Position numbers and translations under genes: made by a program. A DNA stretch of 40,000 nt. Origin: Helicobacter sp. 12S02232-10 (GTDB taxonomy: Bacteria; Campylobacterota; Campylobacteria; Campylobacterales; Helicobacteraceae). This document shows positions 23,509-26,090 of this stretch, one piece after another. Under the pieces are notes generated by a model that did no database searches, was not told the DNA's origin, and saw only the letters and a program-made list of their open reading frames with translations. Within the stretch, counting starts at the first letter, position 1; each line of letters starts with the position of its first letter. The DNA is taken from NCBI RefSeq assembly GCF_002272895.1, contig NZ_MLAQ01000001.1, forward strand, positions 109,800 to 149,799, read 5' to 3'.

Positions 23509-24045
23509 ATGGACCGTATATTGAGTGTTATTTGGTTTTTATTTGGCTTGGCCATTCTTGCTTGTGGAATCATATCTGTTTTTACCCCCACAGAGACATT
23601 TTTAGCTCTGATGGTTCTGATCCCAATTATTTTAATTGCAAGTGGCATAGTAGGAATTTTTTATTACTTTAGAATTCGAGAATTTTCCAGTTCCCAATGG
23701 GTATTGGGAGATGGTTTGTTATCTTTGTTTTTTGGACTTATATTTACATTTGGTGGGGTTGAATTCACTTCTATTACAATGATTTATTTTGTGGCATTTT
23801 TGGCAATATTTAAAGGTATTTTGGGAATATCTTCTTCTTTTGTGTTAAAAAAATCAGGATTTTCTCAATGGTTTTGGTTATTTATTGTTTCAACAATTAA
23901 TATTTTCATCGGGATAATTTTTGCCATCAATCCAAGTATTGCATCTGTAACTATAGGTATCTTAGCCGGTATTTATTTCATATTTTTTGGTCTAATCTCC
24001 TTAATGGGATGGTGGGGATTGAAAAAATTCAAATCAATCCTTTAG
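23509..24045 (+). CDS. HdeD/DUF308-like membrane protein
   Basis: 178 aa, six hydrophobic helices in a repeated pattern, Gly-rich TM segments. Confidence 0.55.
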   Translation: MDRILSVIWFLFGLAILACGIISVFTPTETFLALMVLIPIILIASGIVGIFYYFRIREFSSSQWVLGDGLLSLFFGLIFTFGGVEFTSITMIYFVAFLAIFKGILGISSSFVLKKSGFSQWFWLFIVSTINIFIGIIFAINPSIASVTIGILAGIYFIFFGLISLMGWWGLKKFKSIL

Positions 24046-25112
24046 TGGTTGATATTATCCATAATACTGGCCGCTTCTAAAAGATGCTTCTTGTCAAAAT
24101 GCGTATAAATTCTACTTGTGTTTAAATCTGCGTGTCCTAAAGCTTCTTGGACCAATACTAAATCGTGTCTTTTTTGGTAGAGCAGGGTGGCAAAAGAATG
24201 TCTTAACATATGTGCTCCATTTTTTTCTTTTCGAATGCCGATACTGGCTAGTATTTGCTCAACTTGACGGTAAATATAAGCTTGTGTCAAAGGTCTTCCT
24301 CTTTGATTGCAAAATAATAACTCGTCTTCAACCTCGATCTGAGATCTTATCATCAGCCATTCTTCAAGCAAATTTCGAATATGGAGTGCTTTTATCATTA
24401 CTACTCGATATTTATTTCCTTTTCCTTTGATATTCAAAAGATATAAATTTTCTTCTAGGTTTATATCCTTTGCTTTAAGATGGATAGCCTCACTAACTCT
24501 TATGCCGGTGTAAATAATCATTTTTATGATCAAGCGGTTTCTTGCACGAATTTTTTCTGACATTTCAAATTTTTCAATCCCAGATAAAAATTTTTCCAAT
24601 TCATCCTGATTTAGATAGGTAGGGAGTTTTTGTCCTGATTTTCCCTTGACCCCGCTAATATTTTTGAGTTCTATATTATAAATATATGAATTTCCGTTTG
24701 CATCTTGATTTTGTTTATCAATATAATTAAAAAAGCCTAGCAAAGCAATACGATAATTTTTTTTGCTCGCCAAGCTCAATCCCCCTGTCTGCATTGCCAA
24801 AAACTCACTCAAGACCTCTTCATCAATTTCTTTCATTGAATTAAAATCTCTCAAATACTCATAAAGCTTGATAATAGGTTGGGCATAAGTATTAATGCCA
24901 ATGAGTCCTGCATTTCTAGCAATTTTACAAATCATCTCAAGTTCTTGAATATTTTTAGGTTTTTTTTGAAGTCTTTGGAGGCATTCTTGAATACATTTTT
25001 TATCCTTTACTTGGGTATTTGAAAGCGTTGTAAGTTTATAACGAATAAAACGAGATGACCAAAATAGTAAATCTTGTAAAAAACCTTCATCGGATTCTAA
25101 AACATAACGCAT
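24042..25112 (-). CDS. xerH: XerH-type tyrosine site-specific recombinase
   Basis: 356 aa, the long form typical of the epsilonproteobacterial single-Xer enzyme. Catalytic R (TGIRVSEA), HMLRHSFAT, LGHADLNTSRIYTH (R-H-R-H-Y set). AAGGA RBS. A difH-like site lies 31 bp upstream of its ATG. Confidence 0.8.
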   Translation of the reverse strand: MRYVLESDEGFLQDLLFWSSRFIRYKLTTLSNTQVKDKKCIQECLQRLQKKPKNIQELEMICKIARNAGLIGINTYAQPIIKLYEYLRDFNSMKEIDEEVLSEFLAMQTGGLSLASKKNYRIALLGFFNYIDKQNQDANGNSYIYNIELKNISGVKGKSGQKLPTYLNQDELEKFLSGIEKFEMSEKIRARNRLIIKMIIYTGIRVSEAIHLKAKDINLEENLYLLNIKGKGNKYRVVMIKALHIRNLLEEWLMIRSQIEVEDELLFCNQRGRPLTQAYIYRQVEQILASIGIRKEKNGAHMLRHSFATLLYQKRHDLVLVQEALGHADLNTSRIYTHFDKKHLLEAASIMDNINH

Positions 25113-25142
25113 CTATATCCTTTTATTTATTATAATAGTAAA

Positions 25143-25176
25143 TTTAGTTATGAAAACCATAATTTTCAAACTTTTT
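25143..25176 (+). promoter_or_regulatory. difH-like Xer recombination site (functional-looking; attL of the insertion)
   Basis: TTT-AGTTATGAAAA-CCATAA-TTTTCAAACTT-TTT: two imperfectly inverted 11-bp arms around a 6-bp centre. This matches my recollection of the Helicobacter difH arms (..AGTTATGAAAA..N6..TTTTCA..). Confidence 0.7.
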
Positions 25177-25205
25177 ATTTTATCTTGAAATTCCATAATA
25201 TCGAT

Positions 25206-25250
25206 GGTTTGAAAAATTATAGCACGAAAACTAGAGTTTTCATAACTAAA
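25206..25250 (-). promoter_or_regulatory. second, inverted dif-like site
   Basis: The minus strand reads TTTAGTTATGAAAA-CTCTAG-TTTTCGTG-CTATAAT-TTTTCAAACC. The 14-nt left arm is identical to that of site 1, the right arm is degenerate, and an extra right-arm copy lies 7 nt further on. Confidence 0.5.
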
Positions 25251-25303
25251 AAAAGCTTAAATTTAAAAAGTTTAATTTCTATTCTTAAGATTAAGTTCGA
25301 TAG

Positions 25304-26041
25304 ATGTTCTTAGAAAATTTAGATTTTTTGAGTTTAAAAATTCCTAAAGAAGCTTACACCCTCTTAAAAACTAACTTTGGAAGAAATTGCCTTATTTTGT
25401 ATGGTCTTATAAGGAATAGATGTGAATTTAATGGCTCCTATAAATTTACTACGTCTGAATTTTCTGAATTTTTTGAAATAGAACAAAGACAAATTAATCG
25501 ATGGCTAAATTTTTTAAAACAATCTAACCTAATCGACTTTAAAATCACTTCAAAGCACTATATATGCAGGATTGAAGGCATTACAGGCAAATACCCGCCC
25601 TACTCTAACCCTGTAAATGAAGCCTCAAACTCTGAAGCCTCTGAATCCTTACCCCCTGTTAAAAAATCCAAAAAGAAAAAAGAAAAAAGCATTTATTCAG
25701 AGCTTTCAGATGAAGAGCTAGATTTAATGGATGAAATTGAAACTTATCTCAGAGGGCAGAAGTTAAGATATCAAGATTTTGATATGGATTTTTTAAATGT
25801 AATTTATGAAGAAGAGAGTAACGAATTTCAAATTAGATTTTTACGAGAAGATGGCGGGATGGTATATTTTACAAGGCATAGAACGCATTTAAAGAAAAAT
25901 AACAGTGCTTCTCTTTTTCAGGCTTTTGACAATATGGCAATGAATTATCACCATTATCACGACACCATAGCACCAAAAAGAAGCGTGGGCGAGCTTGTCA
26001 ATAATGCCTACAAGCCCCTTAAAAAGGAGGTTAAAATGTAG
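25304..26041 (+). CDS. putative DNA-binding replication/regulatory protein (winged-HTH-like N-terminus)
   Basis: The N-terminal ~90 aa resemble a wHTH (TTSEFSEFFEIEQRQINRWLNFLKQSNLI), followed by an S/E/K-rich linker (KKSKKKKEK). First gene of the element. Function inferred. Confidence 0.4.
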   Translation: MFLENLDFLSLKIPKEAYTLLKTNFGRNCLILYGLIRNRCEFNGSYKFTTSEFSEFFEIEQRQINRWLNFLKQSNLIDFKITSKHYICRIEGITGKYPPYSNPVNEASNSEASESLPPVKKSKKKKEKSIYSELSDEELDLMDEIETYLRGQKLRYQDFDMDFLNVIYEEESNEFQIRFLREDGGMVYFTRHRTHLKKNNSASLFQAFDNMAMNYHHYHDTIAPKRSVGELVNNAYKPLKKEVKM

Positions 26042-26090
26042 GAAAGGACTGAAAAAATTATTGACACAAATTATATCAAAAGGATAAAAA

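What the first reader, a model, noticed from the sequence alone, without database searches (positions are those of the whole stretch)
25143..25250. Two dif-like sites in inverted orientation 30 bp apart form a large imperfect palindrome at the element's left end
Seen: site 1 (+) and an inverted site at 25206-25250 share an identical 14-nt left arm (TTTAGTTATGAAAA / TTTTCATAACTAAA). They have different 6-bp centres (CCATAA versus CTCTAG). The right-arm sequence TTTTCAAAC also reappears inverted (GTTTGAAAA at 25207-25215). Folded as a single strand, this gives a 14-bp stem, an asymmetric internal loop and a 9-bp stem. Established: CTXphi integrates from a folded ssDNA hairpin built from two inverted dif-like sites (attP1/attP2) with an unpaired centre. 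Inference: the arrangement could be an accessory XerH-binding site that biases directionality, a relic of an earlier integration, or a hint that a single-stranded intermediate takes part.
Basis: partly seen in the sequence, partly recalled or inferred. Interest (0 to 1): 0.6.

Follow-up and report, generated by a model that had tools for sequence, protein, structure and literature searches.

The report
Split inverted dif copy in prophage
A small integrase-less prophage sitting in the Helicobacter chromosome-unlinking site (difH, next to xerH) carries a second, inverted and internally interrupted copy of that site; it is real, but three related prophages integrate without it, so it is probably a disabled spare attachment site and not a cholera-phage-style DNA hairpin.

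Summary
Site 1 (25143-25171, +) is a perfect difH beside xerH. It is the left junction (attL) of a 9,954-bp prophage that has no integrase. Site 2 (25222-25250, -) has the identical 14-nt left arm, a different centre (CTCTAG) and a degenerate right arm. A 14-nt inverted copy of the dif right half lies at 25207-25220.

Read on the minus strand, the whole block is one inverted dif copy: left arm, then CTATAA, then right arm. It is split by a 14-nt insertion and carries one extra T. CTATAA is the dif centre of sister species.

The strong palindrome exists only after integration, because its outer stem is the host's left arm. Folding gives z about -3.7 for the integrated form and about -0.8 for the free attP form.

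Three related dif-type prophages next to xerH (G127, G211, G267) show the same attL/attR logic but have no inverted site. The packaging ATPase is of the dsDNA type (STIV2 B204-like), and no HUH Rep was found. A CTX-type ssDNA hairpin is therefore unlikely (about 8%).

My best reading (0.42) is a disrupted second attachment site that probably still binds XerH at its left arm. The main rival (0.30) is a working XerH operator that overlaps an antisense TGcTATAAT promoter.

New context: in three of these phages attP lies inside a leader ORF that runs into the rep gene.

The parts
24042..25112 (-). xerH, the host tyrosine recombinase that acts on difH
   Evidence: Pfam Phage_int_SAM_6 plus Phage_integrase. 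Matches H. pylori XerH structures 5JJV/5JK0 at E 1.3e-141 over the full length.
25129..25134 (-). Likely native xerH -10 box (TATAAT). It abuts the dif left arm, which sits in the -35 region.
   Evidence: Promoter scan. The same layout (dif directly upstream of the xerH -10 box) can be read in the relatives' flanks. The role is inferred.
25143..25171 (+). Site 1 = attL = regenerated perfect difH. Host left arm 25143-25156, centre CCATAA 25157-25162, right arm 25163-25171 (phage-derived but canonical).
   Evidence: The 26-mer is identical to the single dif of G002, G004, G005 and G014. The 39-bp repeat 25152-25190 = 35107-35145 shows that everything right of the centre belongs to the element.
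25172..25206 (.). AT-rich spacer (the loop of the palindrome), with a small internal CCAT..ATGG inverted repeat
25207..25220 (-). Inverted copy of the dif right half (ATAA plus TTTTCAAAC, with one extra T). Together with C25222-T25221 it reads CTATAA plus right arm.
   Evidence: (I4/I18). CTATAA is the dif centre of the congeneric genomes G001 and G006.
25222..25250 (-). Site 2: perfect left arm 25237-25250, pseudo-centre CTCTAG 25231-25236, degenerate right arm TTTTCGTGC 25222-25230. Bases 25223-25236 can be read as a 14-nt insertion that splits an inverted dif.
   Evidence: alignment. The centre CTCTAG was not found in any dif-like core of 153 family genomes.
25216..25224 (-). Extended -10 promoter motif TGCTATAAT. 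The site 2 left arm sits at -35 with a 16-nt spacer. It reads towards site 1 and xerH when integrated, and antisense to the attP-spanning leader ORF in the free form.
   Evidence: Promoter scan, 10 of 12 with TG. TGNTATAAT occurs 7 times in the window against 3.6 expected. This is a consensus match only; activity is inferred.
25161..25313 (+). 3' part of a 90-codon ORF that is complete only in the circular phage. Its 5' part is 34995-35116. Its stop (25311-25313) overlaps the rep start codon (25304).
   Evidence: 20 of 2000 shuffles give a stop-free frame of at least 90 codons across the junction. G127 (267-aa spanning ORF) and G211 (80-aa ORF ending in an ATGA overlap with rep) are analogous.
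25304..26041 (+). First early gene, a replication-initiator-like protein with a winged-helix, DnaD-like N-terminus
   Evidence: PHROG phrog_186 at 1.6e-5 and phrog_19658 at 4e-4. No Pfam, NCBIfam or PDB match and no homologue among 5.8 billion proteins.
35097..35127 (+). attR, which is also the junction between the two prophage copies (a preserved attP1): degenerate left arm ACTTACGAAAA (G3C, T7C), centre CCATAA, canonical right arm
   Evidence: Arm numbering follows PMC5241119.
35128..36130 (+). Heavily deleted second prophage copy. It lacks site 2, because its first deletion removes 25191-26051.
   Evidence: blastn of 35091-36400 against copy 1.

Best explanation
Site 2 together with the inverted right-arm copy is one phage-borne, inverted copy of a difH site. 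It reads left arm, then CTATAA, then right arm, and it has been split by a 14-nt insertion plus one extra T. The most likely origin is a second attachment site, or a captured dif, matching the CTATAA allele of sister species.

It is not needed for integration. The phage integrates as double-stranded DNA through attP1, which has a degenerate left arm, the centre CCATAA and a canonical right arm. Host XerH recombines attP1 with the chromosomal difH. This regenerates a perfect dif at attL next to xerH and leaves a weak site at attR.

The conspicuous 108-bp palindrome is a by-product of that event. Integration places the host's perfect left arm opposite the phage's inverted left arm.

The split copy cannot recombine with dif. 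Its true arms are 21 nt apart instead of 6, and its pseudo-centre CTCTAG does not match the host centre. Its intact left arm should nevertheless still bind XerH.

Shown: the anatomy, the host/phage boundary, the loss of fold stability in the free form, and the absence of the site in relatives. Inferred: the origin, XerH occupancy, and the lack of an essential role.
For: 1. Anatomy. On the minus strand, 14 of 14 left-arm bases are followed by 14 extra nt and then CTATAA plus the right arm with one extra T.
2. CTATAA is the dif centre of the congeneric genomes G001 and G006. CTCTAG is not a dif centre in any of 153 family genomes.
3. Host/phage boundary: the 39-bp repeat at attR, and a site 1 identical to the relatives' single dif.
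4. Fold: integrated form z -3.64 and -3.77; free form z -0.76 and -0.91.
5. G127, G211 and G267 carry related prophages beside xerH with the same design (perfect or host-type attL, degenerate-left-arm attR) but no inverted site or palindrome.
6. Paired cores 20-110 nt apart occur in only one other of the 173 family genomes searched, G181 (G047's second hit looks like chance), and that pair is not in a phage.
7. Both halves of the split copy are free of point changes, and the neighbouring deleted copy is 97.6-100% identical in its blocks. This fits a recent disruption.
8. Predicted XerH binding rests on PMC5241119: left-arm-only substrates bind with KD 180 nM against 150 nM for wild type and are cleaved like wild type.
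Against: A neutral relic should decay, yet the 14-nt left arm and the 13-nt right half are both perfect. This is also what selection for XerH binding or for pairing would give.

The pseudo right arm keeps TTTTC at the correct 6-nt spacing, so a XerH dimer could still assemble on it.

The 'insertion' creates a perfect extended -10 motif (TGcTATAAT), which suggests a use.

The relatives are distant (30-40% identity in late proteins) and have unrelated early regions, so absence there is weak evidence about this phage. No close relative with an att region could be found.
Confidence: 0.42

Rival explanations
1. Site 2 is a working accessory XerH site or operator. XerH bound to the perfect left arm, and cooperatively to the TTTTC of the pseudo arm, sits on a pair of face-to-face promoters in the phage's early control region.

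The minus-strand promoter (TGcTATAAT, with the left arm at -35) would make a countertranscript against the attP-spanning leader ORF that is translationally coupled to rep. Once the phage is integrated, the same promoter would read into xerH.

The plus-strand promoter (TTGAAA-17-TAGAGT) has its -10 box in the site 2 centre.

Site 2 would then link phage replication or XerH supply to XerH occupancy, or bias the direction of recombination.
For: - Promoter scan: minus strand 10 of 12 with extended TG; plus strand 9 of 12.
- About 0.01 TGNTATAAT motifs are expected in 108 bp.
- The leader ORF overlaps the rep start, and the same architecture occurs in G127 and G211.
- dif abuts the xerH -10 box in this genome and in relatives. 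G211 uses the same 9-mer TGCTATAAT beside its dif. A XerH site upstream of a -10 box is therefore a native layout.
- Left-arm-only sites bind XerH almost as well as wild type (PMC5241119).
- Leader-peptide and antisense control of rep is known from IncFII and IncI plasmids (my own knowledge).
Against: The promoters are consensus matches only. No terminator was found for the proposed countertranscript. XerH is not known to act as a transcription regulator. The feature is absent from the three related dif-type prophages.
Confidence: 0.3
2. CTX-type mechanism. A single-stranded form of the phage folds attP1 against the inverted copy into a forked hairpin that mimics difH, with a bulged centre. 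XerH exchanges one strand pair with the chromosomal dif, and replication resolves the junction.
For: Two inverted dif-like sites on the element are the hallmark of CTX-type IMEXs (PMC5357621). The observed prophage layout (inverted copy retained next to attL, degenerate arm at attR) is what plus-strand hairpin integration would leave (my derivation). The inner stem (right arm plus ATAA) is entirely phage-borne and pairs 13 of 13 with one bulge.
Against: In the free form the outer stem has 2 mismatches in 11, and the fold is not better than shuffles (z -0.76 and -0.91). The packaging ATPase is of the dsDNA type, related to STIV2 B204 and to a PHROG terminase-like family. The Rep is winged-helix, DnaD-like, with no HUH or rolling-circle signature. 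Three related dif-type prophages lack any second site yet integrated at dif. A plain double-stranded attP1 x dif crossover explains the same junctions.
Confidence: 0.08
3. Chance similarity in AT-rich DNA, or an assembly artefact.
For: The genome is about 32% G+C, and the exact 12-mer TAGTTATGAAAA occurs 4 times in the genome, as often as its reversed control.
Against: A full core (left arm, N6, TTTTC) occurs only 3 times in 1.9 Mb and 0 times in 100 shuffles of the window. A second, independent 13-nt inverted match to the right half lies beside it. The fourth 12-mer, on C34, has no core.
Confidence: 0.02

Closest known systems
CTXphi attP1/attP2 forked hairpin of Vibrio cholerae (CTX-type IMEX; described in PMC5357621)
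   Same: The element carries two dif-like sites in inverted orientation with non-matching centres. The inverted copy stays next to one prophage junction. The host Xer enzyme is used and the element has no integrase.
   Different: Here there is one recombinase (XerH) instead of XerC/D. The spacer is 35-50 nt, not about 90 nt. The strong stem needs the host's arm and so is absent from the free phage. The phage has a dsDNA-type packaging ATPase and no rolling-circle Rep. Relatives lack the second site.
dif-type double jelly-roll prophages of Vibrio (IMEXs using XerC/D; PMC12715192)
   Same: Small (about 10-13 kb) integrase-less prophages of the membrane/DJR type. They integrate at dif through a dif-like attP with one good and one poor arm, regenerate dif at one junction, and form tandem arrays.
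   Different: That paper describes single attP sites (full-length, left-armed or right-armed). It reports no inverted second site and no XerH host. I did not confirm the DJR fold of this element: both AlphaFold models were poor.
difHL, the left-arm-only difH substrate of H. pylori XerH (Bebel et al. 2016, PMC5241119)
   Same: Site 2 has the identical 11-bp left arm (T4 and T7-A11 intact) next to a non-canonical right side. This is the configuration that bound XerH with KD 180 nM against 150 nM for wild type and was cleaved like wild type.
   Different: difHL is an engineered substrate. Site 2 is natural and keeps TTTTC on the right. It is paired here with a XerH that is homologous to the H. 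pylori enzyme (E 1.3e-141) but not identical to it.
pdif modules of Acinetobacter plasmids (my own knowledge)
   Same: Xer sites occur as inverted pairs that bracket a DNA segment.
   Different: pdif pairs bracket gene cassettes of hundreds to thousands of bp and share compatible centres. Here only 50 bp lie between the sites, and the centres differ. The G181 chromosomal pair noted in passing is closer to that layout.
TLCphi and the gonococcal genetic island (IMEXs with a defective Xer arm; PMC5357621 and my own knowledge)
   Same: attP1/attR has a degenerate arm on the XerD-like (left) side, which should limit FtsK-driven excision. The other junction is a functional dif.
   Different: Those systems have no inverted extra site. 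TLCphi supplies an activator (XafT); I identified none here.

Membership tests
CTX-type IMEX (ssDNA hairpin integration) | Two dif-like sites in inverted orientation on the element | tested here: met
   attP1 (35097-35127, = the site 1 right half) and site 2 (25222-25250, -).
CTX-type IMEX (ssDNA hairpin integration) | The free single strand folds into a stable stem that rebuilds a Xer target | tested here: not met
   Free-form fold -8.8 and -9.8 kcal/mol, z -0.76 and -0.91; 60 and 55 of 300 dinucleotide shuffles fold as well. Only the integrated form is exceptional (z about -3.7).
CTX-type IMEX (ssDNA hairpin integration) | ssDNA genome or rolling-circle (HUH) replication | tested here: inconclusive
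   No HUH or rolling-circle hit. The Rep is DnaD-like. The packaging ATPase resembles STIV2 B204 and a terminase-like PHROG. Virion DNA strandedness cannot be tested with these tools.
CTX-type IMEX (ssDNA hairpin integration) | The paired sites are conserved in related elements | tested here: not met
   The G127, G211 and G267 dif-type prophages have no second site.
IMEX (integrative mobile element exploiting Xer) | Inserted in the chromosomal dif and flanked by dif-like hybrid sites with the same centre | tested here: met
   attL 25143-25171 and attR 35097-35127 both have the centre CCATAA. Relatives carry a single dif of the same sequence.
IMEX (integrative mobile element exploiting Xer) | No recombinase encoded by the element | tested here: met
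   No integrase or recombinase domain turned up in the element ORFs I scanned, which did not cover every ORF (Pfam/PHROG). A tblastn search of the genome with XerH finds only xerH and two paralogues on other contigs.
IMEX (integrative mobile element exploiting Xer) | Integration or excision depends on the host Xer recombinase | not testable with these tools
   Needs genetics.
XerH/difH dimer-resolution system | A XerH-type recombinase beside an 11-6-10 bp difH site | tested here: met
   E 1.3e-141 to 5JJV/5JK0. The arms AGTTATGAAAA and TTTTCAAACT are identical to those of the H. pylori-type genome G012 and to PMC5241119.
XerH-binding left-arm half-site (difHL-like) | Intact 11-bp left arm including T4 and the inner TGAAA | tested here: met
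   Site 2 left arm is 11 of 11 (14 of 14 with the TTT flank). Actual XerH binding was not tested.

The most novel reading that the evidence does not exclude
A dsDNA, membrane-type (DJR-like) Helicobacter phage integrates through a folded single strand, as CTXphi does. Its attP1 pairs with the split inverted dif copy to present XerH with a bulged difH mimic. That would be the first hairpin-type IMEX in a one-recombinase Xer system and outside the filamentous phages.
Probability: 0.08. Interest if true: 0.85.

Novelty: new variant of a known kind. Interest (0 to 1): 0.38.

Why it matters
If site 2 is only a disabled spare attachment site, it is a small footnote to a more interesting fact: integrase-less phages exploit the single-recombinase XerH/difH system.

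It still has value in two ways.
- It shows how such phages may carry attachment sites for several dif alleles. The sister species differ only in the 6-bp centre.
- It warns that a striking palindrome at a prophage end can be created by integration itself.

If it is a XerH-controlled operator or antisense promoter, it would be the first hint that XerH doubles as a regulator, and that a phage reads XerH occupancy.

The comparative result that attP lies inside a leader ORF running into rep in three phages gives a testable switch: integration uncouples rep from its promoter.

Tried and rejected
No Campylobacterales hit turned up among the loci kept. This used the only genome-contig scan.
2. My first family scan used a gap of 20-50 nt and missed the query itself, whose gap is 58 nt. 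I repeated it with 51-80 and 81-110.
3. A specific pattern scanned over metagenome and viral contigs gave 0 hits. blastn of the att region against phages and plasmids gave no match.
4. Homologues of the 363-aa late protein were only two Logan contigs. Both hold the late operon alone, probably because the assemblies break at the repeated toxin-antitoxin modules. Rep and the 159-aa early protein have no homologues at all, so no close relative's att region could be read.
5. AlphaFold models of the 363-aa protein and of the ATPase had pLDDT 28 and 43. They were too poor for a fold search, so I did not confirm the DJR assignment made in earlier notes.
6. Idea: site 2 is an attP for another species' dif with the centre CTCTAG. 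No such dif core exists in 153 family genomes. The inner CTATAA does match sister species.
7. Idea: the minus-strand hairpin integrates by cleavage at the perfect left arm. Rejected, because it predicts a left-arm|CTCTAG junction and the opposite prophage orientation, neither of which is observed.
8. DNA homology between the left ends of this phage and the G127 phage: none beyond the dif core.
10. I did not fetch CTXphi as a folding yardstick.

Full report
OBSERVATION

Site 1 at 25143-25171 (+) reads TTTAGTTATGAAAA|CCATAA|TTTTCAAAC. Site 2 at 25222-25250 (-) reads TTTAGTTATGAAAA|CTCTAG|TTTTCGTGC. GTTTGAAAA lies at 25207-25215.

The full pattern with up to 3 mismatches finds only these two places in the window, and none of 100 shuffles gave a match. 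In the whole 1.9-Mb genome, a left arm followed by N6 and TTTTC occurs three times: site 1, site 2 and an unrelated site on contig C4. A fourth exact copy of the 12-mer, on C34, has no core.

Folded as ssDNA, 25140-25255 gives -15.9 kcal/mol at z -3.72.

Two refinements:
- The cores are 50 bp apart.
- The inner inverted match covers ATAA plus the right arm (13 nt) with one extra T.

WHAT THE SITES ARE

The ORF at 24042-25112 (-) is XerH. It matches the H. pylori XerH structures 5JJV/5JK0 at E 1.3e-141 and has the expected Pfam domains.

All six other genomes of the genus carry exactly one site of the same form, with centre CCATAA, CTATAA or CAATAA. Where the flank is readable, the site lies just upstream of xerH. 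Site 1 is identical to the dif of G002, G004, G005 and G014.

A third site at 35097-35127 has a degenerate left arm (ACTTACGAAAA), the same centre and a canonical right arm. The 39 bp at 25152-25190 are repeated at 35107-35145. After that comes a deleted second copy of the element.

The layout therefore reads as follows:
- Site 1 is attL: host left arm plus phage right side.
- 35097-35127 is attR, which is also a preserved attP1.
- The element is 9,954 bp.
- Site 2 belongs to the element.
- The second copy lacks site 2, because its first deletion removes 25191-26051.

These points agree with earlier notes of the scan (e1-2457660, e1-2457661, e1-2457663). I re-derived them here.

ANATOMY OF THE INVERTED COPY

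Read on the minus strand from 25250, the order is:
1. a perfect left arm (14 of 14);
2. 14 extra nucleotides (CTCTAGTTTTCGTG);
3. CTATAA;
4. the right arm with one additional T.

This is a complete inverted dif split by an insertion. CTATAA is the dif centre of the congeneric genomes G001 and G006. The pseudo-centre CTCTAG was found in no dif-like core of 153 family genomes.

I use the arm numbering of Bebel et al. (PMC5241119):
- Site 2 keeps every left-arm base, including T4 and the specifically read T7-A11.
- Its pseudo right arm has A24G, A25T and A26G.
- The left arm of attP1/attR has G3C and T7C.

That paper shows that a left-arm-only substrate binds XerH almost as well as wild type (180 against 150 nM) and is cleaved like wild type. 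XerH occupancy of site 2 is therefore a reasonable inference, but it is not shown.

THE PALINDROME IS MADE BY INTEGRATION

The outer 14-bp stem pairs the host's left arm with the phage's inverted left arm. I rebuilt the free attP form by joining 35094-35116 to 25163-25255. I then folded both strands with DNA parameters and 300 dinucleotide-preserving shuffles:

| Form | Energy (kcal/mol) | z | Shuffles folding as well |
|---|---|---|---|
| Integrated | -15.9 and -16.2 | -3.64 and -3.77 | 1 and 0 of 300 |
| Free | -8.8 and -9.8 | -0.76 and -0.91 | 60 and 55 of 300 |

A hairpin that is to integrate must exist before integration. Here it is unremarkable at that stage.

RELATIVES

The element's late proteins are rare.
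- Two Logan contigs hold only the late operon.
- In the 173 species genomes of the family, only G127 and G181 carry relatives.
- In 400 genomes of the order, six more do.

G127, G211 and G267 have the related element directly beside xerH (57-61% identity), with attL/attR pairs of the same design:
- G127: centre CTATAC, element of 10,564 bp. This is evidently the element of note e1-2458905.
- G211: TTGGAAA|CTATAA|TTTCCAA at attL and TTGGCAA|CTATAA|TTTCCAA at attR, 9,159 bp apart.

None of the three has a second inverted core or a palindrome at its left end. G181's relative carries a serine recombinase instead.

Across the family, paired GAAAA-N6-TTTTC cores 20-110 nt apart occur only here, in G181 (a chromosomal, non-phage pair) and once in G047, which looks like chance. 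The caveat is that these relatives are distant and have unrelated early genes.

STRANDEDNESS

The 231-aa ATPase matches a PHROG terminase-like family (1.2e-22). Its only hit among 50,697 phage records is the STIV2 packaging ATPase (21% identity over 85% of the query, E 4e-4). That is a dsDNA-packaging enzyme of membrane-containing icosahedral viruses.

The first early protein is winged-helix, DnaD-like. No HUH or rolling-circle family matched. I could not confirm the double jelly-roll fold, because both AlphaFold models were poor.

NEW CONTEXT: A LEADER ORF ACROSS attP

In the circular form, a 90-codon ORF starts at 34995 behind an AAGG ribosome-binding site. It runs through attP1, the spacer and site 2, and it stops at 25311-25313, which overlaps the rep start at 25304. 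Twenty of 2000 shuffles give such an open frame.

G211's circular form has an 80-codon ORF across attP that ends in an ATGA overlap with its rep gene. G127's attP lies inside a 267-aa ORF.

Integration therefore separates rep from its upstream leader in all three phages. This looks like a built-in shut-off of replication in the lysogen. That reading is inferred.

Inside the leader ORF, on the opposite strand, site 2's 'insertion' creates TGCTATAAT, with the left arm at -35. About 0.01 such motifs are expected in 108 bp. This resembles the native layout in which dif abuts the xerH -10 box. It would give a countertranscript in the free form and read-through into xerH in the lysogen. No transcript data could be obtained, and no terminator was found.

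VERDICT

Integration is best explained by a plain double-stranded attP1 x difH crossover catalysed by XerH. This regenerates dif at attL and leaves a weak attR, as in other IMEXs (PMC12715192, PMC5357621).

My weights for the split inverted copy are:
- 0.42: a disrupted second attachment site, or captured dif, for the CTATAA allele. It still offers XerH a good left arm.
- 0.30: a working XerH operator or antisense promoter.
- 0.08: a CTX-type hairpin.
- 0.02: chance.
- The remainder is unassigned.

The finding is real, modestly unusual and specific to this phage lineage. It is a new variant of IMEX attachment-site architecture, not a new mechanism.

Noticed in passing
L164:7942-8095 (G181:C15:37942-38095): Two complete difH-like sites lie 120 bp apart in inverted orientation with identical centres (CTATTC and GAATAG). 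One has perfectly palindromic right-arm-type arms. The pair is intergenic between housekeeping genes (NAD(P)H-hydrate dehydratase and a FabH-like gene), with no xerH or phage genes within 18 kb. It could be a XerH-invertible 104-bp segment or a duplicated dif.
   Followed up: partly
L001:1498-1532 (G000:C4:15030-15064): A second full difH-like site in this genome has canonical arms but the centre TTTTGA. It lies between a Toprim/DUF3991 (conjugative primase-like) gene and a ParA-like gene. It may be a plasmid or ICE multimer-resolution site served by XerH.
   Followed up: partly
window 34995-35116 joined to 25163-25313; L181 14918/5759; L022 13311/2747: In the circular form of three dif-type prophages, attP lies inside an ORF that leads into the rep gene: 90 codons overlapping the rep ATG here, 80 codons with an ATGA overlap in G211, and a 267-aa fused ORF in G127. 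Integration would uncouple rep from its leader and promoter.
   Followed up: partly
window 25129-25156; L181 5700-5760; L008, L004 flanks: In this genome and in several relatives, the xerH -10 box directly abuts the dif left arm, so XerH bound at dif sits on its own promoter. This suggests autoregulation of xerH, which I did not find described.
   Followed up: no
window 26070-26078, 35000-35008, 35162-35170 (all minus strand): Three further TGATATAAT extended -10 motifs lie on the minus strand of the phage's early/control region, although all large ORFs are on the plus strand. All 7 TGNTATAAT matches in the window are on the minus strand.
   Followed up: no
L023:8800-9219 (G181:C33): A related late-gene cluster in G181 sits on a 9.2-kb contig that ends in a serine recombinase (resolvase-type) gene. 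The same phage group therefore uses at least two integration strategies within the family.
   Followed up: no
L022:2715-2751 (G127): On the host side of G127's attL there is a 16-nt inverted partial copy of 'GAAAA plus centre', 81% complementary and 5 nt away. Its left junction arm is of the right-arm type (CAATTTGAAAA), and no canonical AGTTATGAAAA dif exists in that genome.
   Followed up: partly
L177, L178, L179 (G364:C7, G425:C23, G384:C1): Three more Campylobacterales genomes from other families carry ATPase homologues (37-40% identity) of this phage group, with no xerH in the stretch fetched. Their integration sites were not examined.
   Followed up: no
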